From an uncultured Acidobacteriota bacterium (lineage in GTDB: Bacteria; Acidobacteriota; UBA6911): DNA of 64,000 nucleotides. The stretch is taken from the NCBI GenBank assembly GCA_963827655.1, contig CAWHCF010000034.1, positions 79,225-143,224 on the forward strand. Direction: 5' to 3'. The stretch's first letter is position 1. Every line of letters begins with the position of its first letter. Position numbers and translations under genes: made by a program. The notes below the pieces were generated by a model. That model was not told where the DNA came from and searched no databases. It worked only from the letters and a program-made list of their open reading frames with translations. Of the stretch, positions 2,006 to 63,328 are shown piece after piece.

Positions 2006-2072
2006 AATTCCTGGTGTTTCTTCGTGTCTTTGGGTCCTGGTGGTATTTGTTTCGGTGCGGGAAGCGGGTAAG

Positions 2073-13436: not shown

Positions 13437-13510
13437 TGGGAGATCGTCTAACGGTAGGACGGGTGGCTCTGGACCACTTAATCGGGGTTCGAATCCCTGT
13501 CTCCCAGCCA
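13437..13510 (+). tRNA. tRNA-Gln (anticodon CTG)
   Basis: Acceptor stem TGGGAGA/TCTCCCA, anticodon arm GGTGG-CTCTGGA-CCACT, T-loop TTCGAAT, encoded CCA. Confidence 0.96.
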
Positions 13511-17664: not shown

Positions 17665-18043
17665 CTCAGCCCGACAAACCAGCGGAACAGGAGGTTGTAC
17701 TCCAATTGCTCAATCAGCAGGCGCTCACTGCGAATCGAGTACAGTGCCTGCAGCAGCAGTGCACGAATCAGTTTCTCTGGAGCTACCGACGGCCTTCCAG
17801 TACGCGAATAGAGTTTCGCGAACTGCAGCGACATGCCTCGCAATGCTTCGTCGACCATCGTGCGAACCGATCGCAACGGGTGATCCTGCGGCACGCGCTT
17901 CTCCGGAGAGATGTAACTGAACATCCAGCCCTGCTGTTCGTCGCTTCCTCGCATGACATCGGCCTCCTGCAAAGAAATACGATGTTCAGGTTTTTCCGGT
18001 TTCATATTCATGCATTCGAACCGAGTTTTTCAGCATCCTGTTA
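17665..18043 (-). mobile_element. IS5/IS1182-type element remnant (left end plus 5' part of the transposase)
   Basis: MRGSDEQQGWMFSY..RVPQDHPLR..GRPSVAPEKL..RSER..LFRWFVGL, then truncated. Confidence 0.8.
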
Positions 18044-19123: not shown

Positions 19124-19615
19124 ATGAACGTAGGAGATGTGATGAGCGATACAACCACCTTAATAGCCGCCTTAGAAAATGCCCCTGGTGTTATCATTCC
19201 CCTTATTCGTGAGGTGCCGCCCCAGTTCCTGAAGCGTCGGCCCAGTCCGACGAAATGGTCCGCTCATGAACACGCTTGTCATCTCTCCGCCAGTGATGGG
19301 CCATTCCTCGCGCGCCTCGACTTGATGTTATCTGCTCCAGCGCCTTTTATAAGGTCCATCCTTAATTCTCCAGAGGTGGAATCGGGAGCGCTACTTAGCG
19401 TTGATTTAGACGAAGCACTCGACCGGTATGTGAGAGAGCGAGCCAGTCTGGTTAAGAGGCTGAAGGAACTATCGGTGGAGGACTGGCAGCGAACGGCAGA
19501 GCATGAGGCATTCAGTCATTATTCGGTATGGATCATGTTCCGGCATGTGCTGAACCACGAGATGTTTCATGCCTACAGGATTGAAGAATTGCTGCTAAAG
19601 AAGGACTGGGAATAG
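19124..19615 (+). CDS. DinB-family protein (probable cassette whose attC is lost)
   Basis: KWSAHEHACHL and HEMFH His motifs; begins right after the attC core. Confidence 0.8.
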   Translation: MNVGDVMSDTTTLIAALENAPGVIIPLIREVPPQFLKRRPSPTKWSAHEHACHLSASDGPFLARLDLMLSAPAPFIRSILNSPEVESGALLSVDLDEALDRYVRERASLVKRLKELSVEDWQRTAEHEAFSHYSVWIMFRHVLNHEMFHAYRIEELLLKKDWE

Positions 19616-19635: not shown

Positions 19636-19910
19636 GTGGATAAGAGAAACAAGCGTCATTTTCAGCTCGAGTCGGGGCAACTCAGGTTCTGAGAACGGGC
19701 TTTATGTTAACTTTGCGCGATGTTCCTCGGTCCTGGATGAGTCCGACTCTGCGGATTATACGCCAGGTGCATTGGAAGCGCGAAGAACCTAGCCGTGAAA
19801 TCGTGAGATTTTGCGGAAGAATCCTACCGCGAGGGAGTGCCCTAATGCCCCATTAATACCTCCAGTCGGCTTCCTCTACCGCAGGAGAGATTGGCGGAGC
19901 GCGGGAAGGC
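19636..19910 (-). mobile_element. IS91-family 3' end / oriIS module, copy 1
   Basis: Identical to 32446-32720; minus strand encodes (GL)PSRAPPISPAVEEADWRY* and ends GCTTGTTTCTCTTATCCAC. Confidence 0.78.
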
Positions 19911-19952
19911 AGGCCAGCACATGGCTGCGCTTGCGGATTCAGCGCCGACTAT

Positions 19953-20520
19953 GTATAAGCATTTCTATGTCGAGAGGGCTGGAGAAGCAAGAGAAATTCC
20001 GGCGCGGGCGAGGGCTGGTAGGTCTGTTCGGAGCAAGTTGACGGCTCCAGGTCAAGGGGAAAGGGGTTGGTTGTCATTCACGGACACTGGGAAGGCTACG
20101 GCCGTCTGGTGGTGACCGGATTCAGGAGAGACGGGTATCCACAAGGTGTGCCGTGGTCCGGTTAGGTGGGCGAAGGGCTTGCCGCCGCGGGCGGAGCCCG
20201 GGGCTCAAACGGATCGCGCGCCTTGCAGGCTTCGCTCGCTAGGTGCCTCAGGATCCGGTCGACGACACGGGGTTCCGTGATGAAGGAGACGATTTTCATC
20301 TGCGCTCCGCAGGCACACAGAAGAGGGTCCACCTCGAAGATCTTACGGAGCAAGCGCGCCGAGGAAGCCCTCCGCGCGCGGTTGGAGTCGATTTCCCCCT
20401 CATCTTCCTGCTGCTGCACCCCGGACGGGCGGCAGCTCTGGTCGTTGAGCCCCGCTATCGTGACGCGCGACCGGTTTCCGAAAGCGAAGTCCGCGCACGT
20501 ATCGGATCTTGAGATCCCGA
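19953..20520 (-). mobile_element. Second, different IS91-family remnant (transposase C-terminus plus oriIS-like end)
   Basis: ARLLRKIFEVDPLLCACGAQMKIVSFITEPRVVDRILRHL..RAPP (20162-20419); end motif ATAGAAATGCTTATAC at ~19953. Confidence 0.8.
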
Positions 20521-20681
20521 GGCATTCGTCTCCCCTTGTTCAGCGGAATCCCGGCTTGGAGTGAGGGGGGCACGCCATTCCTTGAGGGAACTGCGAAGAT
20601 GGATGGCAGGCGGATCGTGAACATGTCCCCCCGAACAGTTGTTCGGACCCGAAACGCGCTCCAGCGGGAGGGCGGCGTCGT

Positions 20682-21650
20682 ATGAACTCCGTCGGAATCG
20701 CCGGCCGGCTTATCAGCGTGGTTATTCCAGTCCACAACGAAAACGATTCGTTGCAGGAATTGGCCGGGGAGCTGCTTGCCGTTGCAGCCTCGCACTCTCT
20801 TCCCCTGGAGATCGTTTTCGTCGATGACGGCAGCACGGATGGCTCCTGGAAAACGATCTGCGCGCTTGCCGCTAAGGATTCCCGTATGCGGGGGATCCGC
20901 TTCCGACGCAACTTCGGCAAAGCGGCGGCGCTGGCGGCGGGATTCCAGGACGCGCGCGGACAGGTTGTGTTCCAGATGGATGCGGACTTGCAGGACGATC
21001 CCGCGGAACTGCCCCGCTTTCTCTCCCGCCTGCAATCGGGCGTCGACGTCGTCAACGGCTGGAAGCGAACCCGTCACGATCCCTGGCATAGGGTCTGGTC
21101 GAGCCGGGCGTTTAACTGGATGGTCAGCCGTTTGACCGGCCTCCGGTTGCACGATCACAACTGCGGATTCAAGTGTTTCCGGGCGGACGTGGTGAAGGAA
21201 CTGAAGCTTTACGGCGAGATGCATCGGTTCATTCCCGTGATCGGATTCGCGCGCGGCTACTGCGTGGAAGAGATGGAAGTGCGGCACCGGCCGCGGCGCC
21301 ACGGGCGCTCCAACTACGATTTCCGCAGGATTCCCAAGGGTTTTCTTGACTTGATGACCGTGGCGTTCCTAACGGTCTTCGGACGGCGCCCCCTTCACCT
21401 CCTGGGAGGTGTCGGGTTGGTTCCCTTCTGCCTGGGAGGTCTCGGATTGACCTACCTGGCCGTACAATGGCTTCTGGCGCGGCTTGGGCTGGAAGGGTAC
21501 GGTCCCATCGGCCAGCGGCCGCTGCTGCTGTATTCGGTTGCGGGGGTCCTGTCTGGCCTGCATCTCCTTTCGATCGGCTTTCTCGCCGAGTTGCTTCTCG
21601 CTCTCAACATCCGCCACGTGGACAGCTTCAGCGTTCTCGATCGGACGTAG
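20682..21650 (+). CDS. GT2 polyprenyl-phosphate glycosyltransferase (ArnC/DPM1-like)
   Basis: VIPVHNE, VDDGSTD, RNFGK, MDADLQDDP, HDHNCGFK; two C-terminal TM helices. Confidence 0.9.
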   Translation: MNSVGIAGRLISVVIPVHNENDSLQELAGELLAVAASHSLPLEIVFVDDGSTDGSWKTICALAAKDSRMRGIRFRRNFGKAAALAAGFQDARGQVVFQMDADLQDDPAELPRFLSRLQSGVDVVNGWKRTRHDPWHRVWSSRAFNWMVSRLTGLRLHDHNCGFKCFRADVVKELKLYGEMHRFIPVIGFARGYCVEEMEVRHRPRRHGRSNYDFRRIPKGFLDLMTVAFLTVFGRRPLHLLGGVGLVPFCLGGLGLTYLAVQWLLARLGLEGYGPIGQRPLLLYSVAGVLSGLHLLSIGFLAELLLALNIRHVDSFSVLDRT

Positions 21651-21712
21651 GCTCAGGCTGCAGATTCCGGACATCCCTGCGCTAGCCGTTGGCGGTGCCT
21701 GGTGGACGGGCT

Positions 21713-23206
21713 TCATCGGGACGCCGGCTGAGCGAAGGCCAGGGCGGCCTGCTTTCCTTCCGTATAGAAGTACGTCGCCGTTGCGACGCGTGGCGTGACC
21801 CGGGTGAGGTCCACCTCGAAGTTTTTCGTCACGAACTCCGCCAGAGCAGGAGGCATCGCCCGGCTCCGCGATCCCTCCCAGACGACGAGGAGGGGCCGGC
21901 CCCCGGATGGAATCCCGGCCGTAAGCAGAGGCACGATCAGGTCGCTGTCGCGGAAGTAAAGCCGCAGATTCGCTCCCAGAGCCTTGTTCTCGGCGACAAT
22001 CGTCCCCCCGGTGAAGCCCGCCTTCCTGATTTCCGCGGCCATGTCTGCGGCCGGATAGTGAAGCGGAAGAATAACGCCGTTTGCACCGGCCAGCGGAACG
22101 CGCGCGTGCAGAATGGTCAAGGCGAGAATCGACGAGAGGCCCGAAACAATCGCGAATCTTTTGAATGTGGGCGCGGTGACTGGTCCCTTGACGAGGCTCA
22201 GGAAATAGATGGGGACGAAAAAAAGAACCGGCTCGAGCCAACGATCCTTGAACCGGGTAGCGCCGGTGGCGACCACAACGAGGAAGCATAATATCAGAAC
22301 GACCGCCAGAGTCCTTCCCAGGATCGTCGAGAGCAGTCGAGTTTCCGGATCGGAGCCGAAAGGATCGGGCCTTTTGAAGAGCCAGTAATAACACAGGAGG
22401 AGCGGTCCCAGGAAACTCAAGAGTGCGATGAGCAAGTGCCCGATGCCCGTGGAGGCGATCGTCAGGAAGCCTTGAGAAACATCCGGATCGAGCTTTCTCA
22501 CCACCTCGGAAACGTAGCCGCGATGTTGCCGCAACCAGAATCCGTGCGGGACGACGAGGATGAGGAAGCTGAAAAGGGCGGGAATCACTCTGCCGTCGAG
22601 CAACCGTTTGCGCCCTAGTGGAGTCGAAAGGCATCCAAGTCCCAGGGCCGCCGCAAATGCGGCGAAATTGTAATAGCTGAGGATGCCGAGCGCCGCTGAA
22701 AGACCGAGACCGCAGTAGTTCGCGGTCGAGGGGGTTTTGAGCAACCTAAGGGTGCACAGGAGCGTCAGCCCTGCCATGAGCGTCGCCAGCACACTGTGTG
22801 CCTGGCTGCGCAGGGCTTCCCAGACAAAGGTCGGAATGAGGAAGAGCGAGAGCGAGGCGATGAGCGAGATGTTTTCGTCCTTGAGCACATGCTTTGCGCA
22901 CCCGTACAGCGAGAGGTACACGCCGAACAGGATCAGATTTTTCAGGAGGGCGAGGGAAAAAACACTAACGCCGAAAAGCCGGAAACAGGCACTTTGCAGC
23001 CAGGGGTACAGCGGTGGCGGGGTCTTGTAGCCCCACGCCAGCTCCTGAGACACGAGCGCCATTTCCGACTCGTCAAATCCCAGGCTGGGGGACACCGCGA
23101 CGCGAAGCAGCATATTCGTCATAAAGTAGAGAGCCAGCAGCGAGAAGACGACGAGTTTGAGCCTCGCGCCGTTTGCCGCCGCGGGCCATGCCCGGGAATA
23201 CTCCAT
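21713..23206 (-). CDS. GT39/ArnT-like membrane glycosyltransferase
   Basis: DESE..LAWGY..PPLYPWL motif; polytopic; ATG 23206 preferred over the ORF start. Confidence 0.8.
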   Translation of the reverse strand: MEYSRAWPAAANGARLKLVVFSLLALYFMTNMLLRVAVSPSLGFDESEMALVSQELAWGYKTPPPLYPWLQSACFRLFGVSVFSLALLKNLILFGVYLSLYGCAKHVLKDENISLIASLSLFLIPTFVWEALRSQAHSVLATLMAGLTLLCTLRLLKTPSTANYCGLGLSAALGILSYYNFAAFAAALGLGCLSTPLGRKRLLDGRVIPALFSFLILVVPHGFWLRQHRGYVSEVVRKLDPDVSQGFLTIASTGIGHLLIALLSFLGPLLLCYYWLFKRPDPFGSDPETRLLSTILGRTLAVVLILCFLVVVATGATRFKDRWLEPVLFFVPIYFLSLVKGPVTAPTFKRFAIVSGLSSILALTILHARVPLAGANGVILPLHYPAADMAAEIRKAGFTGGTIVAENKALGANLRLYFRDSDLIVPLLTAGIPSGGRPLLVVWEGSRSRAMPPALAEFVTKNFEVDLTRVTPRVATATYFYTEGKQAALAFAQPASR

Positions 23207-23345
23207 TGCGCGGACGAGACTATCACACGCGCAGATATCCTTGCCAATTCTGAAGCGCTTCTCGGTCCATGGCGTCCCCCCGGCGGGCACCTTGCGGTCC
23301 CGGCAGTGTCTGAGTCGAACTCGGCGGCGGGAAAAAACAGCCTCA

Positions 23346-23931
23346 TCAAGCCTTGGCGAGGGGCTGACGGCTGCGCCGCAGGAAATCGCGCTCGGTCGTG
23401 TTCTCGGTGCGGGCGATCGCCGCCTCGTAGGCCAGCACCGCCTCGGCGTTGCGGCCGAGGCGTCGAAGCAGGTCGGCGCGGGTGGCGTGGAACAGGTAGT
23501 AGTCACGGAGGTCGAGGCCGTCGACGACGGCGAGCGCCGCTTCCGGTCCGTTCACCTCAGCCACCGCCACGGCGCGGTTCAGGGCCACGGCCGGGCTCGG
23601 GGCCAGCAACAGGAGATGGTCGTATAGCTGCCACGGTCGCGCCGTGGCCGTGCTGGTCCGCCACTTCGAACCGGAGGTCATGGGCCTGCTTGCGCTCATG
23701 CTGCTCGTCGAGTCGCGCCGGGCCACGCGCACGACCCCGGACGGCGACCTCGTACTGCTGGCGGATCAGGACCGCGGCCGCTGGGATCGAGGCCTCATTG
23801 CCGAAGGCCAGGCCATCGTCCGGCAATGCCTCCGGCGCAACCAGCCCGGCCCGTACCAGATCCAGGCGGCGATCAACGCTGTCCACAGCGACGCTCCGGC
23901 CGCGGCAGCTACAGACTGGCGGCAGATCCTG
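23346..23931. pseudogene. Scrambled fragments of a DUF6596-type ECF sigma factor
   Basis: C-terminus on - (23346-23630), N-terminal HGRAVAVLVRHF on + (23632-23667), middle EPEVMGLLALM..ATDWRQIL on + (23668-23931). Confidence 0.8.
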
Positions 23932-24046
23932 GCGGCTCCGGGGCGGAGAAGTCCTGACGACCGACGGCCCGTTCGCCGAGGGCAAAGTGCACATCGGCGG
24001 ATTCTTGATCATCAAAGCGCCTGATCTCGACGCCGCGCTCGAGTGG
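23932..24046 (+). pseudogene. YCII-domain fragment
   Basis: TDGPFAEGKVHIGGFLIIKAPDLDAALEW, cut at repeat copy 2. Confidence 0.8.
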
Positions 24047-24308
24047 GTGGATAAGAGAAACAAGCGTCATTTTCAGCTCGAGTCGGGGCAACTCAGGTTC
24101 TGAGAACGGGCTTTATGTTAACTTTGCGCGATGTTCCTCGGTCCTGGATGAGTCCGACTCTGCGGATTATACGCCAGGTGCATTGGAAGCGCGAAGAACC
24201 TAGCCGTGAAATCGTGAGATTTTGCGGAAGAATCCTACCGCGAGGGAGTGCCCTAATGCCCCATTAATACCTCCAGTCGGCTTCCTCTACCGCAGGAGAG
24301 ATTGGCGG
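24047..24308 (-). mobile_element. IS91-family 3' end / oriIS module, copy 2
   Basis: Identical to the first 262 bp of copy 1. Confidence 0.78.
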
Positions 24309-25449
24309 CTCAAGATCTACACGACGCTCGATCCGACGATCCAAGCAGCGGCAGGAAGCCATCGTCACGGAGCTCGACCGTCTGCAAAACGGGCGCCCCG
24401 CGCTCGAAGGCGCCGTGATCGTCACGAATCCGCACAACGCCGAAGTGCGCGCGCTGGTCGGCAGCCGCCGAATCGGCTACGACGGCTTCAACCGCGCGCT
24501 CGACGCGAAGCGGCAAGTGGGCTCGCTCATCAAACCCGTCGTCTATCTCGCGGCGCTCGAGTCGGGCCGGCATTCGCTCGCGACGCAGATCGAAGATGCG
24601 CCGATCACGATATCGCTCGACAACGGCACGGCCTGGACGCCCGCGAACTTCACGGAGGAAATGCACGGCTCGGTGACCACCGTGCGCGCGCTTGCGGAGT
24701 CGTTCAATCTCGCAACCGTGCATCTCGGCTTGGATGTCGGACTTTCTCCGGTTGCGGACGTGCTCGGCCGACTCGGTCTCGATCGAACGCCCTCGCTGTA
24801 CCCATCACTCCTCTTGGGCGCCGTCGACATGACGCCGCTCGAGGTCACGCAGATCTACAACACGCTCGCGAACGGCGGATTCCGCGTGCCCTTGCGCACC
24901 GTGCGCAGGGTCGTCGGCGGCGACGGGCAGACGTTGCAGCGCTACGCGCTCAAGATCGAGCAAGTCAGCGATCCCGTGTCCGTCTATGCGTTGAATCAGG
25001 GATTGGTCCAAGTCATGCAGCGCGGCACAGGCAAGGCGGCACGCGCACAGCTTCCCGCATCGCTAAGAACCGCGGGCAAGACCGGGACATCCGACGGGCT
25101 GCGCGACAGTTGGTTTGCAGGTTTCAGCGACGATCATTTGGTCGTCACATGGGTCGGCAACGATGCGAACGAGGTCGTCGGTCTCACGGGAGGCACGGGG
25201 GCATCGCAAATCTGGGCGCGCACGTTCGCGGAGCTCGAAGCAAGCCCTTATAGCACTCCTCCGCCCGCAGGCGCCGAAGTGGTCTGGATCGACTACAACA
25301 CCGGTTTGACGACGGACGAACGGTGTCCCGACGCCGTGCTCGTCGCGATGACAGCCCCCGATGTCCCGCCGAAAGCAGTCGCATGCGGCAGCAATAGCAC
25401 ACGCGTCGGCTCGAGGATTCGCTCGTGGTTCCAGAACGCATTGCACTAA
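24309..25449 (+). pseudogene. mrcB: Penicillin-binding protein 1B, transpeptidase half only
   Basis: LKIYTTLDP starts at the repeat junction; SLIK (SxxK), SFN (SxN) and KTGT motifs; no transglycosylase domain; frameshift near the start. Confidence 0.8.
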
Positions 25450-25862
25450 TGAAGCTTTGGTCGTTTCTCGTAACTGCATGCGTCGTTGCGGCCGGCTGCT
25501 CGACGCTTGCGCCTGCGGACTCGGGCTCCTCGTCATCAGAGCCCGGTGCCGCCGCGCCAAATCGCGTACCGGCCCCGGACGCCGAAGATCGCGCTGCCGA
25601 GGTCCCGCAACCGAGCGCGGCGAGCGTCGCGTTGCTCGAGCGCAGTCGCAGTGAGCGCGCAGCCGGAGATTTCACCGCAGCCGCTGTCTCCGTGGAGCGC
25701 GCGCTGCGCATCGAGCCGAACAACCCGTCGCTCTGGATCGAGCTCGCCGAGATCAAGGCCGCGGAGGGCGATCGCGATCAAGCGGAAATGATCGCACGCA
25801 AAGCCTTGACACTCGCGGGCTCCGACCGCTCGATCCGCGAGCGCGCCGACCGCCTCTTGTAG
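25449..25862 (+). CDS. TPR lipoprotein
   Basis: Lipobox AAGC; ERALRIEPNNPSLWIELA TPR; lies downstream of mrcB. Confidence 0.8.
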   Translation: MKLWSFLVTACVVAAGCSTLAPADSGSSSSEPGAAAPNRVPAPDAEDRAAEVPQPSAASVALLERSRSERAAGDFTAAAVSVERALRIEPNNPSLWIELAEIKAAEGDRDQAEMIARKALTLAGSDRSIRERADRLL

Positions 25863-25896
25863 GAGCGAGCTCCGCTCGCGATTCTTGACTATGCTG

Positions 25897-26913
25897 TTAT
25901 TTCGGCTCGTGCACCGTGTAGCCCAGTTCCGCCAGTGTGCGCACCAGTGACAAGCTGCCCTTGATGTACGCCACGGGCAGCATCGTGAACGTGGAGCGGT
26001 TGTGCTCGAGTGCGGATACTGCCGCGTCGAGCCAGCGTTGCCTGCTTTCCTCCAGCAATTCTTGCGCCAGCTCGCCTTCCGAACTGGTCAGCAGCAATTC
26101 GGAGCAGGGATCTTCTAGGCTGCCCGGCTGTACGAAATCTTCGATGTCGCGGGCATTGCCGGTAGCCCAGGCATTGGCCACTTCCTTTATATCATTCAGG
26201 TGACTCTCGAACAGCGTCAGTTGCGACTCGAAACAGTCGATCTCGCTTTGGAGCGGCAGGCTGTCAGTCATCTCTTCCAGACGATTGCTGAGATCGCGAT
26301 AGTCGCCTTCCAGCATCCGTTCCACCTTGACGTCCGTTTTGCGGATATCCCGATTCTTGCGAATCAGCTTGTCCACATGGCGGGTGATGACCTCGAAGCC
26401 CGTGAGTCGCTCTTGCGCCTGGACCTCTCTCGCGATCATTGCGGCGGCGAAGGCGGGGCGCAGCATGTCGACGTCGCTGTTGTGGGGAAAATATTCGGCT
26501 TTCACGGCGGTATAACGCTGATAGATGTCTTCGGGCAGCACTTCGGCCAGCGACGCGTCATCGGGGTTTCGTTGCAGCCGCCGGTACAGGCGTGGGCCGC
26601 GAATAAGATTGATGGGGTTGAGCAACAACAGCTTTGACACGCCAACTGAAATATCGGGTTCGCCGATGGCTGCGTCCGCATCGGCAATGATCGCCGCCAC
26701 TCTGTCGTCTTCCCAGATCATGTCTTTGGGCACGATAGGGACCAAAGGCAGGATCCAGAGCACATGATCACCGCTGCTCACTTTCCACAGTGGCGGACCG
26801 GGCTGCCGGCCCGTGACGACGATCTCTTCGACGTCGTGCTCTTGCGCCAGAACAGGGAACAGGGAAGGGTTGAGCAGCAAGCAGCAAAGCACGAGTCGTT
26901 TGAAGTATTTCAT
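25897..26913 (-). CDS. TraB/GumN family exported protein
   Basis: Signal peptide; GRQPGPPLWKVS.GDHVLWI N-terminus. Confidence 0.75.
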   Translation of the reverse strand: MKYFKRLVLCCLLLNPSLFPVLAQEHDVEEIVVTGRQPGPPLWKVSSGDHVLWILPLVPIVPKDMIWEDDRVAAIIADADAAIGEPDISVGVSKLLLLNPINLIRGPRLYRRLQRNPDDASLAEVLPEDIYQRYTAVKAEYFPHNSDVDMLRPAFAAAMIAREVQAQERLTGFEVITRHVDKLIRKNRDIRKTDVKVERMLEGDYRDLSNRLEEMTDSLPLQSEIDCFESQLTLFESHLNDIKEVANAWATGNARDIEDFVQPGSLEDPCSELLLTSSEGELAQELLEESRQRWLDAAVSALEHNRSTFTMLPVAYIKGSLSLVRTLAELGYTVHEPK

Positions 26914-26928
26914 GACCTTCAGCGCCGC

Positions 26929-30459: not shown

Positions 30460-30465
30460 CGTCAG

Positions 30466-31353
30466 TTACTCCGCAGTCGTGTCGATGCCGTGCTCGAGCA
30501 GCGTCGCGAAGTAGACGTCTTCGAGCGTCGGTGCAGCGCCCTGCATGCCCGCAGGAGCCGAGTCCGCGAGCACGCGCGCTTCCGTGCGCCCAGCCACGAT
30601 GCGTGTCGAAATGACTTTCAGCGTCGCACGCAAGCGCTCCGCTTCGGCCTTGTCGACGGCCGTCGACCAGAGCCTCCCGTCGAGCTCGGCCGTGAGCGCG
30701 CGCGGCTCGCCGACGCGCAAGATCTTGCCGGCCGCCATGATCGCGACGCGCGGGCACAGCGCCGAGACGTCGTCGACGATGTGTGTCGACAGGATCACGA
30801 CGACGTCCTCGCCGACCTCGGACAACAAATTCTGGAAGCGCCGCCGCTCGACGGGGTCGAGGCCGGCCGTCGGCTCGTCGACGATGAGCAGGCTCGGGTT
30901 GCCAATCAGCGCCTGCGCGACGCCGAAGCGCTGGCGCATGCCGCCCGAGAACTTGTCGATGCTGCGTTTACGTACGTCCCAGAGGTTCGTGCGCACGAGC
31001 GCGTCGCGGACCACCGCTTTGCGCTCCGCGCCGTGAATGCCCTTGAGCGCCGCGAAGTGCCCGAGCATCACTTCCGGCGACGTGCGCGGATACGCGCCGA
31101 ATTCCTGCGGCAGGTAGCCCAAGCGCTTGCGCAGCTCCATCTTCGCGCCGAGCACGTCGAACCCGTCGAACGTGATGGCGCCGCTGTCGGGATCTTGCAG
31201 CGTCGCGATCGTGCGCATCAGCGTCGACTTGCCCGCGCCATTCGGGCCGAGCAGGCCGAACATGCCTTTCGGTATGTCGAGGCTCACGGCGTCGAGCGCA
31301 CGCACGCCGCCCGAATAGGTTTTGGACAGGTTTGAAATGCTCAGCATGGGCAA
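30466..31353 (-). CDS. ABC transporter ATP-binding protein
   Basis: GPNGAGKS, FSGGMRQR, IVDEP, STH. Confidence 0.95.
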   Translation of the reverse strand: MPMLSISNLSKTYSGGVRALDAVSLDIPKGMFGLLGPNGAGKSTLMRTIATLQDPDSGAITFDGFDVLGAKMELRKRLGYLPQEFGAYPRTSPEVMLGHFAALKGIHGAERKAVVRDALVRTNLWDVRKRSIDKFSGGMRQRFGVAQALIGNPSLLIVDEPTAGLDPVERRRFQNLLSEVGEDVVVILSTHIVDDVSALCPRVAIMAAGKILRVGEPRALTAELDGRLWSTAVDKAEAERLRATLKVISTRIVAGRTEARVLADSAPAGMQGAAPTLEDVYFATLLEHGIDTTAE

Positions 31354-31363
31354 CCTCTTGTTG

Positions 31364-32445
31364 TCATTCGACGGCCCAATCCGCGAGACGTAGTTGCGGC
31401 ACGATCAGGCGGGACGTGAAGTGCTCGCGCGGCCGGAAGGGCACGTACCGCACGAGCCAGTCTTCGCGCCGCGCGTCGTCGGGCAACGGCACGTCGATCT
31501 CGAAGCTCTCGAACAGCCGAAAGCCGAGCTGGAAGCGGGAGTAGTCCGGCTGGCAAATCAAGCGCTCGCCGACGCGCGCGTCGCCCGCGCGCTTCTCGGC
31601 ACTCACGCTGTAGCAGGACGGTCGATGCAGCGTGAGGCAGCGCATCCGCACGCCGTCGCGGTTGCGCAGCGGTTCCGTGGTGCACCGATCGTTGCTCGCA
31701 AAGCGCGCCTCGCCGCCGTCCGCAGGCAGGGAGAGCTCGCCGTCCATCTCGAGGGCCGTGAGCGAGTAATCGACCTCGAGCCGCAGCGCTTCGTCGCGAT
31801 GCCGGTCGAATACATCCGACGGGACGAAGAGAATCTGCACCTCTTCCGTCTCCGCGTGCACTTCGAGCGCGTCGCCCGTGCCGCGATACACGACGCGGCC
31901 GCCGGCGTCGACGAGGCGCGCCTCGACCCGGTCGGCCCAGAGCACATCGCCGTCATGACTCCGCGTGATCTTGAGCGGCAGTGCGAGCGTCGTGCCTTGC
32001 GTCTGCCGGGACAACCACACCCCGAGCTCGCCGTTGCTAGCCTGGCCGGCGAGACTGGCGCGCGCCCTGAAGATTTCGGCCTGCGCGGGGCTCAGCATGT
32101 CCGGCGCAGTGACGTGCCCGCGCGCGAGGTCGAGCTCGAGCGCGACGTCCGCCGGGACGGCCGGTGTACCGGTCGATCGTTGTTGCAGCCCGTGCGCAAA
32201 ACCCCATGGCAGCTGCCCGACCGCTGCGTAGGCAACCGTCGCGACGAGGACGGCCGCACGCGCCGAGCGCGTAGCACCGCGCCTGAAGTACTGCAGGCCG
32301 ATCACTGCGAGCGCGCCTATTACCACGACGGAGATTCGGCCGAGCATCGTGATCCACGCGATGCCCGTGCCGCACGTGGCGCACGGAATTCCCGCAAGCC
32401 CGAAGAACAAGAGCGCGGCAGCTTCCGCCACGATAGAAACGATGA
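31364..32445 (-). pseudogene. Hypothetical membrane protein, N-terminus cut by repeat copy 3
   Basis: Hydrophobic reading frame PLIVSIVAEAAALL.. runs right up to the repeat end without an evident start or RBS. Confidence 0.6.
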
Positions 32446-32720
32446 GTGGATAAGAGAAACAAGCGTCATTTTCAGCTCGAGTCGGGGCAACTCAGGTTCT
32501 GAGAACGGGCTTTATGTTAACTTTGCGCGATGTTCCTCGGTCCTGGATGAGTCCGACTCTGCGGATTATACGCCAGGTGCATTGGAAGCGCGAAGAACCT
32601 AGCCGTGAAATCGTGAGATTTTGCGGAAGAATCCTACCGCGAGGGAGTGCCCTAATGCCCCATTAATACCTCCAGTCGGCTTCCTCTACCGCAGGAGAGA
32701 TTGGCGGAGCGCGGGAAGGC
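32446..32720 (-). mobile_element. IS91-family 3' end / oriIS module, copy 3
   Basis: Identical to copy 1; followed by a 15-bp duplication CGGAGCGCGGGAAGG (32721-32735). Confidence 0.78.
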
Positions 32721-32872
32721 CGGAGCGCGGGAAGGGCCTTTCTGTAGACGTAGTGGCTGTAGTGAACCAGCGGTATCAGATGTTCCTACGATCAATACAC
32801 CGTCGTCGAACACGTGACCAGGCTGTCGCCCAATCATTGAGTACCTGTTCCATACCAGAAGTTGCCATGACA

Positions 32873-33802
32873 TTACCGGATTTGTTGTTTTGCTAAAAAG
32901 CTCTGGATCAATTGGGCGATGTGGTCGTCTTCTTCTTCAAGCGCAAAGTGTCCGGTGTCGAGCAGGTGAAACTCAATATTCTTCAAATCGCGCTTGTACG
33001 GTTCCGCGCCTTCCGCAGGAAAAATGTGGTCGTTTTTGCCCCACACAATCAGCGTTGGCGGCTGGTGTTTGCGGAAATACGCCTGCCACTTCGGGTACAG
33101 CGCTGGGTTCGAGCCGTAATCAAGAAACAGCTTGAGTTGGATCTCCTGATTACCGGGACGGTCAAGCAGGGCTTGGTCAAGTGTCCATGTGTCGGGTGAA
33201 ATGCGGTTCGGATTGCGCGTGCCGTGCGTGTACTGCCACTTCGTCGCCTCGACTTTCAAGAAATCGCGCAGTTTATTGGCGTTTTCCTCGGTCGAATTTT
33301 CCCAGTAGTTTTTGAGCGGATTCCAAAAACCGCGCAAACCTTCCTCATAAGCGTTGCCATTTTGCACAATCAACGCCTGTACCCGTTCGGGATATTTCAC
33401 CGCGAGGCGATAACCGACAGGTGCGCCGTAGTCCTGTACATAGAGGCTATATTTTTTCAGTCCCTTGGCGATGGTAAATTTTTCAATGACGTCCGCCAAA
33501 TGGTCGAACGTGTAGCTAAACTCGCCCACACTCGGCGCGGAACTGTAACCGAAACCCGGATAGTCCGGCGTGACGACGTGATACTTGTCCGCCAAAAGCG
33601 GAATCAGATTGCGAAACATGTGCGACGAAGTTGGAAAGCCATGCAGCAAAAGAATTGTCGGCTTGTTCGGATCGCCCGCTTCGCGGTAAAAAATCTCCAG
33701 ATTGTCAATTTTCAACGTGTTGTAAATCACCTGGTGTTGGTTTGACAACGCAGGCACAGTTTGTGCTCTGGCGGCTAAACTGTCGTTATTTTTGTCTTTC
33801 AT
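32873..33802 (-). CDS. Alpha/beta hydrolase (epoxide hydrolase-like)
   Basis: LLHGFP, DYPGFG, QDYGA nucleophile Asp, TGHFALE. Confidence 0.9.
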
Positions 33803-33883
33803 TTTCTCATCCTTCTCTTTCTTGTTCTGATTCGGAGCGTTACCCGATCGCGAAACGGCTACGCTGCGCGTGCGGCCGCCCCC

Positions 33884-34429
33884 TTACGCCGGCACTCCGA
33901 GTTGGACTTTCGGAAAGTCAATGTCGGTTTTGGCAATTACGTTGAAGTAGTTAGTGAAGATGTTGAGCGCGACGTTGGCGATGATTTCGCCGATCTCACC
34001 GTCGGAAAAACCGGCGCCCTTCACCGACTGTAAATCCGCGTCCGAAACTTCGCCGCGATTGACGATCACGGTGCGCGCGAATTTCAAAGCTGCGTCGGTT
34101 TTGGCGTCGGCGGCATTCCCGTTGCGCGCCGCCAGAATCGCGTCTTCGCCCAGACCGACCATCTTGCCGATTGCCGTGTGGGCCGAAGCGCAATAGTCGC
34201 AGCCGTTAATCTCCGCCGAGATGAGGGCGATCTGTTCGCGCAAGCGTGCGTTCAGTTTGCCGCCGCCGAGCGCACCGCTAAATTTCAGGTAGGCTTCCAG
34301 AACCGCGGGCGATTGCGCCATCGTTTTCATCATGTTCGGCGTCATGCCGAGCTGGGCTTTGACGGCGTCCAGCAACTCCTTCGCTTTCCCGGTTGACTGC
34401 TCGTAGCTGACGGGTTGAATTCTGGTCAT
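33884..34429 (-). CDS. AhpD/carboxymuconolactone decarboxylase-family peroxidase-related protein
   Basis: EQIAL..NGCDYCASAH CxxC motif. Confidence 0.9.
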   Translation of the reverse strand: MTRIQPVSYEQSTGKAKELLDAVKAQLGMTPNMMKTMAQSPAVLEAYLKFSGALGGGKLNARLREQIALISAEINGCDYCASAHTAIGKMVGLGEDAILAARNGNAADAKTDAALKFARTVIVNRGEVSDADLQSVKGAGFSDGEIGEIIANVALNIFTNYFNVIAKTDIDFPKVQLGVPA

Positions 34430-34478
34430 CGTTTCCTCCTTAGCTAATTTCGGCGTCTCGCGCCGCGCCTCCCCTTAG

Positions 34479-34494
34479 TGCACCGCTCGTGCCG
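34479..34494 (-). promoter_or_regulatory. Sigma54 -24/-12 promoter
   Basis: CGGCACGAGCGGTGCA (GG-N10-GC) upstream of the AhpD gene; ACGAA..TCGT dyads at ~34580-34615 are possible activator sites. Confidence 0.65.
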
Positions 34495-34626
34495 ATCAAG
34501 CTTAACTTGTTAAATCAATGACACGCAGCAACATAACGAAGAGAGGTATCAGCCGGTCAACTTGAAGAATCGTTATCTCACGAAATCTCGTTGCCTATGA
34601 TCACGAACACTCGTTAAGCTTGTCGC

Positions 34627-35691
34627 ATGACACCTGCCACAGATCATTTCTACGAAGAAGAAGGAGACGAAAGAGAGCCGGTCGAGGGGTTGATCGGCGA
34701 GAGCGCGGCCTGGCGCAAGGTCCTGCAGCAGATCGAGCTTGTCGCTTCCTCCAACGCGACCGTTTTAATTACGGGTGAATCGGGAACGGGCAAGGAAGTG
34801 GTGGCAAAGGCTATTCATGCCAAAGGTGCGCGCCGCCAACGTCCGCTTGTCAAAGTCAACTGTGCGGCAATCGCGCCAGACCTTTTCGAGTCGGAATTCT
34901 TCGGGCACGTAAAGGGCGCGTTTACCGGAGCGCACAAAGACCGTGTTGGCAGATTCGGACTTGCCGACGGCGGGACGATCTTTCTCGACGAAGTCGGCGA
35001 AATCCCGCTCGCCCTGCAGGGCAAACTGCTGCGCGTTTTGCAGGAAGGACAGTATGAGCGCGTCGGCGAAGACCGCACGCGAAAGGTCGATGTGCGCGTG
35101 ATCGGGGCGACGAATCACGACCTGGGAAAGGAAGTCGAAGCGGGCAGATTCAGGCAGGATCTATTTTACAGGCTGACCGTTTTTCCGATTCATGTGGCGC
35201 CTCTTCGCGAGCGGTTGGAGGATGTGCCGCTGCTGGCTGAACATTTCATGCGAAAGCTGAATTGGCGCGACCGAAGTAACCTGCCAGTGCGTTTAAGCGA
35301 GGAGAACGTGAGCGCTCTGCTTGATTATCACTATCCAGGGAACGTCCGCGAGCTCCAAAATATCATCGAGCGAGCCGGCATTCTGACGCATTGTTTCCTG
35401 TATAACCTAAGTGTGCAGCAGATTCTCGACGCGATGTTGCTCTCTGAACAGAGGAAACAGCTTGACTTGGCTGTCAAAGAACCTTTGATCGCCAATGGTC
35501 GTTCGCAGAAAAAAATCATGACATATGCGGAAATGAAAGACTTGGAACGTCAAAACTTGATCGGCGCTTTACAGGCTACGAATTACAAAATTTATGGCGC
35601 TGGCGGGGCCGCCGAGCTTCTCGGCGTTAAGCCGACGACGCTCGCCTCGCGCATCAAGGCTTTGCAAATCCCGCTTCGCCCGAGCACATAA
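34627..35691 (+). CDS. Sigma54-dependent activator (AAA+ and HTH, no N-terminal sensory domain)
   Basis: [34 protein letters not shown]. Confidence 0.92.
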
Positions 35692-35726
35692 ACCGGGGTG
35701 GCATTGAGCGATTAACACCACTGGCG

Positions 35727-35780
35727 GCAGAACCCCGCCTTGCACTCGACTCGCCTCCGCTGGCGCCCGGCGAGCGGGTG
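35727..35780 (+). other. Truncated attC-like site
   Basis: GCAGAAC-CCCGCCTTGCACTCGACTCGCC..GGCGAGCGGGTG, cut off at GTGGATAAG before any GTT core. Confidence 0.45.
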
Positions 35781-35904
35781 GTGGATAAGCCTATCTCAGG
35801 CGGAACGAGCGCACAGCGCGGCGTTGGGAAAAAACAGAGGGATTGCCGGTTTACCGGCACGCCCACGCGAAGCGAAGGCTTCTATCTCCGCCAGCTAAAT
35901 CCGG

Positions 35905-37139
35905 AAATTATCTCGCTCCATCCTTATCCCCCAGCGGGCGTTACCTCGCTTTTGTGCAAAGAACCGATTTCGTGGTGAGTGAAATCTATCTCAGCACTCT
36001 GCAGCCCGATTTCACACCGGAGGGCGAACCGAAAAGGATCACCTACGAGAACCGGCTGACGACCAGTCCTGTAATGGGCTGTTGATGGGCGTGAAATCAT
36101 GTTCCTGTCCGGCGAGCTTGGTGCGGACGCCGCCCTCTATAGCGTATCAATCTCAGGAGTTGGGAAGCCCAACGTGTTGCCGTTTCTCCGAGAAGGTGCT
36201 GCCCTCCTTGCGCTGGCTCGACCTGCCGGGGGTCCGTTCCCGCCCGGGCCGCGACGCCTCGCCTACACGCGCGCGATCAAGGATCACAACATATGGCGCA
36301 CCGACGCATACCGCGCGGACGGTCGGTTCAGTGCGCCACGCCCTTTCATCCCCTCCACGCGCATCGATTTCAATCCGCAACTGTCACCGGATGGTACGAG
36401 AATCGCCTTCGAATCGAGCCGCTCGGGCAGCACGGAGATCTGGGTTGCCAATAGCGACGGTTCAAATCCCATGCAAGTGACCTATGTCGGTGGTCCGCTG
36501 ACCTCAGCCGCCCGCTGGTGTCCGGATAGCCAGTGCATCGTCTTTAACTCACGTGCAGGAGGGCAGTCCGACATCTACGTCGTCAGCGCCAACGGGGGCA
36601 AGCCGCGGCGGTTGACGGATGAGCCCAGTATGGAGGACATGCCAAGCTTTTCGAGAGACGGGCATTGGTTCTATTTCCAATCAAACCGCAGCGGGAGCAA
36701 CCAGGTTTGGAAAATGCCTGTGCAGGGAGGCAAGCTAATCCAGGTAACAAACAAAGGAGGGCTCCTTGCAGTGGAGTCACCCGACCGTAAGTTTGTCTAC
36801 TATTCGAAGGGTAATGCGCTCGGACCCGCCTCCCTCTGGAGAGTTCCGTTGTCCGGAGCTGGCCCCGGCGGCGATGAGACTCAAGTTTTGGAATCTCTTG
36901 CTGACTGGAGCACATTCTCGGTCGTTCGTGATGGAATTTACTTCATCCCGTACGCAGCGGGTAACCTGAGAACCTCCATTCAGTTCTTTGGCTTCGCTGA
37001 CAAGAAGACCAGGCAGGTAACCGCCATTGACAAGCCGGTTGCTGTGGGTCTTGCGGTTTCGCCGAATAGTCGCACCATTTTGTACAGTCAGGTTGACTAC
37101 GAAACTAACGACCTGATGCTCGTTGAGAATTTGCGGTAG
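35905..37139 (+). pseudogene. PD40/TolB-like propeller fragment (5' truncated, frameshifted)
   Basis: PQLSPDG.RIAF.S.RSG..EIWV repeats; frames 35843.. and 36099.. join. Confidence 0.75.
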
Positions 37140-37322
37140 TCCGGCCGCGCCCCGCTAGCATGGTGGCGGCACAGCGTTGGCAAAGTGTTGCGGCGGCCAG
37201 AATGTCTTTCAGTTGATACTGGCCGCTTCGTCTCTTTTCGATTTCTGCGTGTCGACTTGCTCCGATGACAATGGTTGCCAGACGGCCCACGTGATAGAAT
37301 GAGCCATTCTAAAGGAGTCCTG

Positions 37323-37709
37323 ATGCCCCCTACGCTCGCGAACGGCAAGGTGTGCTACATCGAGATCCCCGCTGACGACATCCAGCGTTCGGCCGACTTC
37401 TATGCCAGGGTTTTCGGCTGGCGGATCAGGCAGCGCGGCGACGGTCACACCGCATTCGACGACACGACCGGCGAAGTGAGCGGCACGTGGGTGGTCGGCA
37501 GGCCGGCGTCGTCGGAACCGGGCCTGCTCGTCTACATCATGGTCGACAGCGTGGCCGCGACCATAGACGCCGTAATTAGCCACGGAGGCGAACTCGTGCA
37601 ACCGATTGGCGCGGATGCGCCCGAGGTGACCGCCAGGTTCCTCGACCCCGCTGGAAACGTGATCGGCCTCTACCAGGAACCCGGCCGTTTGCCCTCTTCC
37701 GAGAAGTAA
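37323..37709 (+). CDS. VOC/glyoxalase family protein
   Basis: CYIEIPA..FY..VFGW, DPAGNVIGL; RBS AAGGAG. Confidence 0.88.
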   Translation: MPPTLANGKVCYIEIPADDIQRSADFYARVFGWRIRQRGDGHTAFDDTTGEVSGTWVVGRPASSEPGLLVYIMVDSVAATIDAVISHGGELVQPIGADAPEVTARFLDPAGNVIGLYQEPGRLPSSEK

Positions 37710-38142
37710 TACAATCCCCTCGTCGCGCGGCGCGGCCATGTCTTTCTCCATGTGCGCCGGGTAAAACCGGCGAGGGTCGCGCTAGCAGCGCCTCACGGGT
37801 ATAGAGCGACAGGTTCGGCATCGCGTTCGGCATGAAGCACTAGAGGAGGTAAGACGCGAATGCCAGAACCGCGCCGCGGGGCCTATTCGATGACCGCCCT
37901 CCGCTACGAGTATTCCATGGCCCCTGCCGGCTTCAACCAAACGACGAGAATGCGGTTGAGAATGCGATGGAAACGCAGCCGGGGCTGACGTCCTCGCGAC
38001 CGAACACGACCTGAAAGCTCTTGCGGATTGAGTCGTAGGCCGTGCGCGACAGCAGGCCCAGCAACCTTCGGACTCCACGCGCAGATCCCTAGCCCGGAAA
38101 CGACTTGGCTGCAAGCGCGTCGGGCCAGAACTGCTCGAAACG

Positions 38143-38349
38143 TCATTTCGTTATCGGCGCCGCGGCAATGTTCTTGTTAACGATGTCAATCGTCTGCTGG
38201 TACTCCTTCTTTGGACTGAACTCAAGAACCTCGGTGTCCTCCTCATAGACGGGCACGTGTCCAGGTTCGAGGTAATAGACGTCTCCAGTTTTCAACACAA
38301 CATCGCCATCCGCGCTCTTGATGCGCACTCGGCCCCTGAATACATAACG
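38143..38349 (-). pseudogene. Cupin-like protein, C-terminal fragment
   Basis: YVFRGRVRI..GDVYYLEPGHVP..EFSP. Confidence 0.6.
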
Positions 38350-38372
38350 GTACTGTCGAACCGTCTCCGTCA

Positions 38373-38444
38373 GTGGATAAGAGAAACAAGCGTCATTTCA
38401 GCTCGAGTCGGGGCAACTCAGGTTCTGAGAACGGGCTTTATGTT
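38373..38444 (-). mobile_element. IS91-family oriIS module, partial copy 4
   Basis: First ~72 bp of the repeat, with one T missing. Confidence 0.75.

Positions 38445-63251: not shown

Positions 63252-63328
<77 letters not shown>

What the first reader, a model, noticed from the sequence alone, without database searches (positions are those of the whole stretch)
19636..38444. Candidate gene-capture array punctuated by identical, non-autonomous IS91 oriIS ends (Helitron-like)
Seen: one sequence occurs at 19636-19910, 24047-24308 and 32446-32720 (identical by eye over 262 bp) and partially at 38373-38444, all in the same orientation. On the minus strand it encodes (GL)PSRAPPISPAVEEADWRY*, then ~210 non-coding bp ending GCTTGTTTCTCTTATCCAC. 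All outer ends are precise and begin GTGG, with no target duplication or terminal inverted repeats. The inner ends vary and are joined to unrelated DNA, and genes are cut at the junctions (YCII, mrcB, a membrane protein). Known: IS91/ISCR HUH transposases typically end in an RAPP/RGPP motif upstream of oriIS (..TTCCTAT-like), insert at a tetranucleotide without duplication, and mobilise DNA lying inside oriIS. Inference: short ori-only modules, mobilised in trans, each carried 4-8 kb of foreign cargo and stacked head-to-tail here. This would be a bacterial parallel to Helitron gene capture with no transposase in the unit.
Basis: partly seen in the sequence, partly recalled or inferred. Interest (0 to 1): 0.88.

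Follow-up and report, generated by a model that had tools for sequence, protein, structure and literature searches.

The report
Solo IS91 right ends bordering DNA
Five broken-off "start" ends of rolling-circle insertion sequences (IS91 family) lie head-to-tail at the borders of unrelated DNA segments in a soil bacterium's chromosome, a known way for bacteria to shuffle genes, seen here without any transposase gene in the array.

Summary
An identical unit lies at 19636-19916, 24047-24308 and 32446-32723, with 72 bp of it at 38373-38444, all in one orientation. It is the right (oriIS-side) end of an IS91-family insertion sequence: the last 20 codons of tnpA plus 217 non-coding bp. Elsewhere in the genome the same unit continues into a Y2_Tnp fragment. 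A fifth right end, of another subfamily, lies at 19951-20477.

The genome holds 33 such ends. Only one carries an intact transposase gene, and each truncated copy breaks at a different inner point. Three genes are cut exactly at junctions. Segment 24309-32445 is a compositional outlier.

One end-plus-cargo block from another contig recurs at 98.9% identity in a metagenome contig, with both flanks different. This favours one-ended rolling-circle transduction. Insertion followed by deletion or recombination is not excluded, and no read evidence confirms the window's own junctions.

The mechanism is already known from IS91, IS801 and ISCR, so this is a new member of a known kind. Interest is moderate.

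The parts
13437..13510 (+). tRNA-Gln. The mobile-DNA-rich mosaic starts just downstream of it (context only).
   Evidence: ARAGORN; Rfam. Repeats and IS fragments from 13710 onward.
19124..19615 (+). DinB-family gene, intact. It is the left flank of copy 1; its stop lies 20 bp before the IS end.
   Evidence: Pfam PF12867, profile positions 2-125 of 128.
19636..19916 (-). Copy 1 of the subfamily-A IS91 right end (281 bp): 217 bp non-coding terminus plus the last 20 codons of tnpA. The outer end is at 19636.
19917..19950 (.). 34-bp spacer of unknown origin between the copy-1 inner end and the subfamily-B outer end.
   Evidence: Sequence read.
19951..20477 (-). Subfamily-B IS91 right end (527 bp; outer end begins TGTATAAGCATTTCTAT), with about 95 C-terminal codons of its tnpA. 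Same orientation as the A copies.
   Evidence: 89.6% identity to G000:C26:121147-120593, which lies 3' of a PF04986 fragment. tblastn gives 92.7% identity to that ORF, aa 179-274.
20478..24046 (.). Segment S1: GT2 glycosyltransferase (20682-21650 +), PMT_2 mannosyltransferase-like gene (21713-23506 -), and a YCII fragment cut at 24046.
   Evidence: Pfam. Composition is ordinary, at the 72nd percentile.
24047..24308 (-). Copy 2 of the A right end (262 bp).
24309..32445 (.). Segment S2: 5'-truncated class-A PBP (transpeptidase part, 24415-25449 +), TPR protein, TraB/GumN, ABC-2/peptidase-M1 fusion (26929-30459 -), ABC ATPase (30466-31353 -), and a 5'-truncated membrane protein (31364-32431 -). 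It is a compositional outlier.
   Evidence: Pfam. GC 66.2% (99th percentile) and 4-mer distance at the 100th percentile of 2017 genome windows.
32446..32723 (-). Copy 3 of the A right end (278 bp), followed by a 14-nt local duplication.
32724..38372 (.). Segment S3: alpha/beta hydrolase (32873-33802 -), CMD family protein (33884-34429 -), sigma-54 activator (34627-35691 +), PD40-repeat protein (36099-37139 +), and a weak IS91 tnpA remnant at about 37969-38070 (-).
   Evidence: Pfam. Remnant: 35% identity over 34 aa, E 0.012, plus a joint 20477->37973 in one contig of run X3.
38373..38444 (-). Copy 4 of the A right end (72 bp, one T missing).

Best explanation
The repeats are transposase-less right-end (oriIS-side) remnants of IS91-family rolling-circle insertion sequences. 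Four belong to subfamily A and one to subfamily B. They sit head-to-tail at the borders of unrelated DNA segments, inside a mobile-DNA-rich stretch downstream of tRNA-Gln.

Proposed mechanism. A Y2 HUH transposase supplied in trans nicks at the exact outer terminus. The strand is peeled off inward, and termination is imprecise (one-ended transposition). Early termination leaves short ori-proximal stubs. Late termination carries along whatever DNA lies inside the end, cutting genes at the stop point. New units land beside existing ends, and the near-identical copies can also recombine. The result is a same-orientation array of end-plus-cargo modules.

Shown: the family identity of the ends, their exact outer and variable inner boundaries, the cut genes, the foreign composition of S2, and one end-plus-cargo block in two genomic contexts.

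Inferred: that transposition rather than deletion or recombination made the window's own junctions, and that any transposase now in this genome acts on subfamily-A ends.
For: 1. Family identity. The unit is contiguous with a PF04986 fragment in C8. The intact C52 ORF has PF14319 plus PF04986 and a similar terminus about 225 bp after its stop.
2. Census. nhmmer finds 33 right ends in the genome, 11 of which were in the model. One carries a full-length tnpA, 8 carry fragments, and 24 give no tblastn hit.
3. All 24 truncated copies measured keep the outer terminus and break at different inner points between 29 and 394 bp. The 4 metagenome contigs and 1 MAG contig carrying A or C ends are truncated as well.
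4. Orientation. 14 of 17 adjacent pairs of ends on the same contig point the same way.
5. Both terminal genes of S2 are truncated and S2 is a compositional outlier.
6. L054 positions 584-2508 match C40:65263-63339 at 98.9% (a 270-bp end plus 1655 bp of cargo, same inner junction). Its left flank matches C39 at 93% and its right flank matches neither. That cargo was found in 0 of 136 other genomes of the class.
7. Precedent. The last 82 bp of the IS91 right end suffice with TnpA in trans, and one-ended events reach about half of events without Orf121 (PMC13181058, passages read). IS801 yields 229-, 360- and 679-nt right-end miniatures and transduces flanking DNA in vivo (PMC3189936, abstract and passages read).
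Against: - No two ends in this genome share an inner junction or cargo. The single exception is a 1.65-kb repeat that includes both flanks. Replicative spread of a unit inside this genome is therefore not seen.
- Inner ends show no ter-like tetranucleotide. Only 3 of 24 have CTTG, GAAC or GTTC at the break. The flanks of the outer ends show no tetranucleotide consensus, only a pyrimidine bias by my tally of the rows.
- No intact subfamily-A transposase was found: not in the genome (90% complete), 0 hits in species genomes for an exact 26-mer, and all 4 JGI contigs truncated. The intact C52 element belongs to another subfamily.
- The 100% identity of copies 1-3 could come from recombination or gene conversion.
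- The study of IS801 fragments in Pseudomonas syringae genomes concluded that most arose by reorganisation, not one-ended transposition (PMC3189936).
- The window's own junctions are not confirmed by independent reads.
Confidence: 0.5

Rival explanations
1. Decay in place. Complete or miniature IS91-family elements inserted independently into this island. Later deletions, or homologous recombination between same-orientation copies, removed the transposase parts and neighbouring DNA. The segments between copies are then leftovers of the local sequence, not cargo that travelled with an end.
For: Each inner junction is unique, and there is no ter-like tetranucleotide at inner ends. The region is a graveyard of mobile fragments: DUF772 at 17547-18011, rve at 39988-40596, the B end, and a small IS91 tnpA remnant at about 37969-38070. 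One insertion plus one rightward deletion explains a cut gene on each side of a copy. The P. syringae survey reached this conclusion for most IS801 fragments (PMC3189936, passages read). S1, S3 and S4 have ordinary composition.
Against: Random deletions would not leave all 24 measured copies shorter than about 400 bp of a roughly 1.8-kb element, nor place 8 of 24 breaks within 21 nt (reference positions 263-283), with three cross-family pairs at the same homologous position. This model does not explain the sharp compositional break at S2, the C40/L054 block with both flanks different and higher identity in the block (98.9%) than in the flank (93%), or the 14-of-17 same-orientation bias.
Confidence: 0.35
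2. Assembly artefact. The contig is a chimera in which a metagenome assembler joined unrelated pieces through a 262-281-bp repeat present in several genomes.
For: The genome looks like a metagenome bin (53 contigs, 90% complete, 2.4% contamination). The repeat occurs in several contexts in soil metagenomes. In run X1 a contig matches 19099-19635 without a mismatch and then continues for 72 letters unlike the window. S2 differs in composition from the rest.
Against: The same architecture (exact outer end, truncated inner end, unrelated DNA on both sides) is spanned within single independent JGI contigs L052, L053 and L054. It recurs on six contigs of this genome for five subfamilies. The assembly also carries 88 near-full copies of a roughly 235-bp repeat inside long contigs, which suggests reads longer than such repeats; that is my inference.
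Confidence: 0.07
3. The ends serve as recombination sites of another system, for example cassettes moved by a tyrosine integrase as shown for the CR2-sul2 unit, rather than as rolling-circle origins.
For: Arrays lie next to tRNA genes. The C40 array starts 26 bp after tRNA-Glu, C27 has tRNA-Met plus an integrase nearby, and the window mosaic starts after tRNA-Gln. Integrase-driven movement of an ISCR-linked unit is documented (PMC9376610, abstract and passages read).
Against: None of the 20 PF00589 matches in the genome lies on contig C34. No shared att-like core was seen at the far ends of the segments. The conserved part is the IS91 terminus itself.
Confidence: 0.05

Closest known systems
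IS801 right-end 'miniature' fragments and one-ended transposition in Pseudomonas syringae (PMC3189936)
   Same: Both are transposase-less pieces that keep the exact right (ori) end of an IS91-family element and a few hundred nt inward. There, TnpA acts in trans, flanking DNA can be carried along, and fragments sit near accessory genes.
   Different: The IS801 miniatures end at a tetranucleotide resembling the left end. Here only 3 of 24 inner ends show such a tetranucleotide. Here the solo ends far outnumber complete elements (1 intact of 33), and they form same-orientation arrays.
IS91 / IS1294 one-ended transposition (PMC13181058; Mendiola et al. 1994 known only through citations)
   Same: Both have distinct ori and ter ends, no inverted repeats and no target duplication. 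The ori end lies downstream of tnpA, about 80 bp of it is sufficient, and read-through moves adjacent DNA.
   Different: IS91 inserts next to CTTG or GTTC. No such consensus is seen beside these ends. Activity is untested here.
ISCR elements in complex class 1 integrons and CR2-sul2 units (PMC9376610, PMC6218425)
   Same: Both are IS91-like elements found repeatedly, in one orientation, at borders of captured genes, and truncated copies are common.
   Different: ISCR units normally keep the transposase gene and carry resistance genes in clinical Proteobacteria. This array has no transposase gene, and its cargo in a soil bacterium is housekeeping-type genes and gene fragments.
IS91-mediated catabolic gene modules and circles in Sphingobium herbicidovorans MH (PMC5737581)
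   Same: Both are in environmental bacteria, with oriIS about 170-220 bp downstream of tnpA, repeated IS91 ends flanking accessory DNA, and one-ended transposition proposed.
   Different: In Sphingobium the units contain IS91 genes, and an 11-kb circle was observed. Here there are no transposase genes and no circle data.
Helitrons (Helraiser, PMC4778049)
   Same: Both work alike: a rolling-circle HUH enzyme, one essential end, sloppy termination giving truncations and transduction, and end-to-end insertions.
   Different: The protein architecture differs (Rep plus helicase) and the hosts are eukaryotes. This is a likeness of mechanism only, not family membership.

Membership tests
IS91 family (right-end / oriIS remnant) | Y2 HUH transposase (PF04986, with the PF14319 zinc domain) encoded just upstream of the end and reading towards it | tested here: met
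   In the window only the last 20 codons remain. The same unit in C8 continues into a PF04986 fragment. The intact relative in C52 has PF14319 plus PF04986.
IS91 family (right-end / oriIS remnant) | Two different ends, with no terminal inverted repeats | tested here: met
   0 inverted pairs in 15000-45000. All ends in the window share one orientation. The left end of subfamily A is unknown.
IS91 family (right-end / oriIS remnant) | No target-site duplication | tested here: inconclusive
   No duplicated bases flank any copy. However, the copies are truncated and their flanks are unrelated, so this is not a clean test.
IS91 family (right-end / oriIS remnant) | Conserved target tetranucleotide (CTTG / GTTC-like) abutting oriIS | tested here: not met
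   The flanks listed show no tetranucleotide consensus, only a pyrimidine bias at the first flanking base in transposase sense (my own tally of those rows). Alternatively, the conserved last 2-4 nt of the repeat could themselves be the target; this is unresolved.
IS91 family (right-end / oriIS remnant) | oriIS about 170-220 bp downstream of tnpA, with a conserved terminal motif | tested here: met
   217 bp lie between the stop and the terminus. The terminus aligns with those of four other subfamilies and with the intact C52 element. Likeness to the canonical IS91/ISCR oriIS consensus is recalled, not tested.
IS91 family (right-end / oriIS remnant) | Subterminal palindromes at oriIS | tested here: inconclusive
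   A 5-bp stem (CTCAG..CTGAG) is present in subfamilies A and D. RNAalifold gave no consensus structure, and single-strand folds were no better than shuffles (z -0.7 to +0.4).
IS91 family (right-end / oriIS remnant) | Rolling-circle or one-ended transposition activity | not testable with these tools
   Needs a mating-out assay or detection of circles.
IS801-type miniature (one-ended product) | Intact right end, and an inner end at a tetranucleotide homologous to the left end | tested here: not met
   The right end is intact in all copies except C8. Only 3 of 24 inner ends carry a canonical tetranucleotide.
Integron-like cassette array | Tyrosine integrase beside the array and attC-like sites at cassette borders | tested here: not met
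   20 PF00589 matches in the genome, none on contig C34. The borders are IS91 termini.
Helitron | Rep plus helicase protein, with 5'-TC / CTRR-3' ends (ends recalled) | not tested
   The only related proteins found here are IS91-type (PF04986/PF14319). I did not search for a helicase fusion, so only the mechanism is compared.

The most novel reading that the evidence does not exclude
Transposase-less oriIS stubs are a working class of non-autonomous launch pads in soil bacteria. An internal termination hot spot in the RAPP-coding tail of tnpA (8 of 24 breaks within 21 nt, shared by three subfamilies) sheds roughly 265-285-bp mini-elements. Any compatible IS91-family TnpA then fires these in trans, so that each drags the DNA inside it to new sites and stacks head-to-tail. 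This would be a natural, transposase-free cassette-building system, comparable in effect to Helitron capture or integron arrays.
Probability: 0.25. Interest if true: 0.75.

Novelty: new member of a known kind. Interest (0 to 1): 0.42.

Why it matters
Gene capture by IS91/ISCR elements is mostly inferred from antibiotic-resistance regions of clinical Proteobacteria, and the Helraiser paper still calls the evidence circumstantial (PMC4778049, passage read). This soil genome offers a natural data set outside that setting. It has 33 right ends from at least five subfamilies, almost all solo, clustered in one orientation at borders of unrelated DNA. One end-plus-cargo block is seen in two contexts. 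If the stubs are active origins, the material allows direct tests of three questions: how little of an IS91 element is needed to move genes, where termination occurs, and whether transposases cross-mobilise foreign ends. If the stubs are only debris, the case is an ordinary IS graveyard, useful mainly as a warning for annotation and metagenome assembly.

Tried and rejected
- **Simple mini-insertion (flanks once contiguous).** A script removed each of 15 copies and looked for reading frames spanning the join. The two long spans, at copy 2 and at C9:74761, are not real genes: one is a YCII-PBP chimera in frame by chance, the other a low-complexity antisense frame. For copy 3 the missing 159 codons of the membrane protein are not on the other side, where the hydrolase gene lies. 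I rejected this for copies 2 and 3; it stays open for copies 1 and 4.
- **Synteny with relatives.** No genome of the same genus is held. The 40 relatives share only single genes at 65-76% nt identity. Five fetched regions showed only single genes or the ABC pair. This was uninformative.
- **Replication-strand bias as the cause of the shared orientation.** Local GC skew is weak (|skew| <= 0.03) and not consistent between arrays. Inconclusive.
- **Conserved structure at the ends.** None found.
- **Known RNA family in the repeat.** Only the tRNA reached threshold in the window. A group II intron reading, which I considered because of the GTG start, was dropped on the transposase evidence.
- **Read support.** All four runs laid were Logan contigs. 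No listed record bridges a junction of the window. This does not count against the junctions, because such contigs break at repeats and most records were not shown.
- **Parent element.** An exact 26-mer gave 0 hits in genome contigs. A degenerate 41-mer gave 1 hit (L055, a truncated subfamily-C end). The metagenome scan gave 4 contigs, all truncated.
- **Donor of the C40 cargo.** 0 of 136 other genomes of the class.
- **Closed or unavailable.** PMC43276 (Mendiola 1994) is not held. Supplementary files were not opened; the annotation files of PMC3189936 and the in-silico terIS tables of PMC13181058 may bear on the tetranucleotide comparison.
- **Unpublished genomes.** G034, G063 and G185 were among those searched. 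They enter only the tallies, and no specific claim rests on them.


Full report
**Observation.** The repeat is real and exact. The repeat finder gives copies at 19636-19913, 24047-24324 (262 bp truly shared) and 32446-32723, and a 49-nt core in four copies that includes 38396-38444. MAFFT shows all four begin GTGGATAAGAG, with unrelated DNA to the left. Measured against longer copies, the lengths are 281, 262, 278 and 72 bp. The minus strand of copy 1 reads GLPSRAPPISPAVEEADWRY, then a stop at 19853-19855, then 217 non-coding bp. The window is G000:C34:79225-143224, in an 8.18-Mb genome of 53 contigs that is 90% complete.

**What the unit is.** The 278-bp unit has 25 matches in its own genome. 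The copy in C8 lacks the outer 27 bp but runs on into an ORF with a PF04986 (Y2_Tnp) match. The genome has 13 PF04986 matches. The one long open frame, C52:175240-176820 (527 aa), has PF14319 plus PF04986. About 225 bp after its stop comes a terminus that aligns with the repeat's outer end. The repeat is therefore the right, oriIS-side end of an IS91-family element. By the literature this is the end where rolling-circle transposition starts (PMC13181058 and PMC3189936, passages read). A second right end, which I call subfamily B, lies at 19951-20477, 34 bp after copy 1 and in the same orientation. It is 89.6% identical to C26:121147-120593, which follows another PF04986 fragment.

**Census of right ends.** A nucleotide profile built from 11 ends finds 33 right ends in the genome at E <= 0.001. 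I group them by terminal sequence into subfamilies A, C, D, E and F; subfamily B was outside that profile. Within 2.6 kb inside each end, tblastn with the C52 protein finds the full protein once, fragments at 8 ends, and nothing at 24. The ends cluster: four on C34, three on C40, four on C9, five on C45 and two on C31. Of 17 adjacent same-contig pairs, 14 share orientation; the one-sided binomial is about 0.006, but the pairs are not independent. Three clusters lie beside tRNA genes. Upstream of the intact C52 gene lies a further ori-like terminus, head-to-tail with it.

**Inner ends.** For the 24 truncated copies of subfamilies A, C and E, the outer terminus is kept and the inner break differs each time:
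- A: 33, 72, 112, 253, 262, 270, 278, 281 and 394 bp
- C: 29, 45, 93, 123, 148, 209, 212, 263, 279 and 285 bp
- E: 101, 111, 243, 267 and 362 bp

Eight of the 24 breaks fall at reference positions 263-283, in the DNA that encodes the RAPP tail of the transposase. Three pairs from different subfamilies break at the same homologous base. Only 3 of 24 breaks carry a canonical IS91-type tetranucleotide. The flanks of the outer ends show no tetranucleotide consensus.

**Copies elsewhere.** The public copies I could find are also stubs. Four JGI contigs hold A ends of at least 183 (cut by a contig end), 409, 394 and 270 bp. One titled MAG contig (L055) holds a C end of about 425 bp. An exact 26-mer of subfamily A was absent from the species-genome collection.

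**Anatomy of the array.**
- The left flank is an intact DinB gene.
- S1 (20478-24046) holds GT2 and PMT_2 genes and a YCII fragment cut at 24046.
- S2 (24309-32445) starts in a PBP that keeps only the transpeptidase part. Homologues in 298 of 301 genomes of the phylum mostly have 780-850 aa open frames, and the best identity among the top full-length matches is 42%. S2 ends in a membrane protein that lacks about 159 N-terminal codons.
- S3 (32724-38372) begins 150 bp before the intact 3' end of a hydrolase gene.
- S2 is a compositional outlier, with GC 66.2% against a genome mean of 59.1% and a 4-mer distance above all 2017 genome windows of 4 kb. S1, S3 and S4 are ordinary.
- There is no transposase gene in 19636-38444. 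Apart from the A-copy tails, which are too short for tblastn, only the B tail was detected, and weakly a 34-aa remnant at 38070-37969. One X3 contig links 20477 to 37973, so pieces of a B-type element may lie on both sides of 17.5 kb.

**Evidence on mobility.** Within the genome, no two ends share cargo. Between genomes there is one informative case. Metagenome contig L054 matches C40:65263-63339 at 98.9%, covering a 270-bp A end, the same inner junction, and 1655 bp with an ECF-sigma operon. Its left flank is 93% identical to a kinase gene on C39, which the end cuts at codon 7. Its right flank matches neither locus, whereas in C40 the block ends 26 bp from tRNA-Glu. The cargo was found in none of 136 other genomes of the class. 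A block with both borders sharp, different neighbours, and higher identity than its flank is what a moved unit would look like. Recombination plus a second event could imitate it.

**Mechanism and rivals.** I favour one-ended rolling-circle transposition from these ends with a transposase in trans (confidence 0.5). Early stops would give the stubs, late stops would give end-plus-cargo units, and insertion beside existing ends together with recombination between copies would build the array. It accounts for the exact outer ends, the short length range and hot spot, the orientation bias, the foreign S2 and the L054 block. Laboratory work supports it: 82 bp of the right end is sufficient, one-ended events are frequent, and IS801 produces miniatures and transduces flanking DNA. 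The main rival is insertion followed by deletion or recombination in place (0.35). It is favoured by the unique inner junctions, the missing tetranucleotides, the lack of a cognate transposase and the general debris in the region. An assembly chimera (0.07) is unlikely, because single independent contigs span the same architecture, but the window's own junctions remain unconfirmed. An integrase-driven cassette system (0.05) lacks an integrase on this contig.

**Comparison and novelty.** The closest described cases are the IS801 miniatures and one-ended events (PMC3189936), IS91 and IS1294 themselves (PMC13181058), ISCR units (PMC9376610, PMC6218425) and the IS91-borne catabolic modules of Sphingobium (PMC5737581). 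The Helitron likeness is one of mechanism and has already been drawn in print (PMC4778049). Two literature searches turned up no description of same-orientation arrays made only of transposase-less right ends. That is a statement about those two searches only. I file the finding as a new member of a known kind, of moderate interest.

Noticed in passing
window 13-197 and 1165-1399: A roughly 235-bp element with terminal inverted repeats of about 30 bp (MITE-like). There are 88 copies of at least 180 nt at a median 94.7% identity on 34 contigs of the genome (221 hits in all).
   Followed up: partly
window 2007-2054: A roughly 46-bp dispersed repeat: 249 hits of at least 40 nt on 48 contigs, median 88.9% identity. 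Its nature is unknown.
   Followed up: partly
reference positions 263-283 of IS91 right ends (window 19898-19916, 24308, 32723; also C9, C31, C40, C2): Eight of 24 truncated right ends from three subfamilies break within 21 nt, in the DNA coding for the RAPP tail of the transposase. Three cross-family pairs break at the same homologous base. This may be an internal termination or recombination hot spot.
   Followed up: partly
window 37969-38070 (-) and 19951-20477: A weak IS91 tnpA remnant (35% identity over 34 aa, E 0.012). One contig of run X3 joins 20477 to 37973, so pieces of one subfamily-B element may bracket 17.5 kb of the array.
   Followed up: partly
G000:C52:176990-177030 (about 480-505 nt into the reverse-complement view): Another ori-like terminus lies head-to-tail just upstream of the only intact IS91-family element.
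   Followed up: no
G000:C40:63237-70046; G000:C27:31794-38986: Other clusters of IS91 right ends also lie next to tRNA genes. The C40 array starts 26 bp after tRNA-Glu, and C27 has tRNA-Met with a tyrosine integrase nearby. In L054 the A end supplies an in-frame ATG to the kinase gene that it cuts.
   Followed up: partly
window 63254-63321: A perfect palindrome of about 64 bp; the stretch matches its own reverse complement.
   Followed up: no
window 17547-18011 (-), 39988-40596 (+), 13710-14326: Further mobile-element debris: a DUF772 transposase fragment, a weak rve integrase-core fragment, and a roughly 600-bp repeat with 4 long copies at 84-88% identity.
   Followed up: partly
window 60043-61654 and 63337-64000: 98% and 88% identity to the start of contig C47 (1-1613 and 1706-2368). 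Contig C34 ends in a repeat shared with another contig end.
   Followed up: no
window 18169-18402 and 18628-18861: A 234-nt internal duplication (75% identity) inside the two-domain DUF4440/SnoaL gene at 18062-19015.
   Followed up: no
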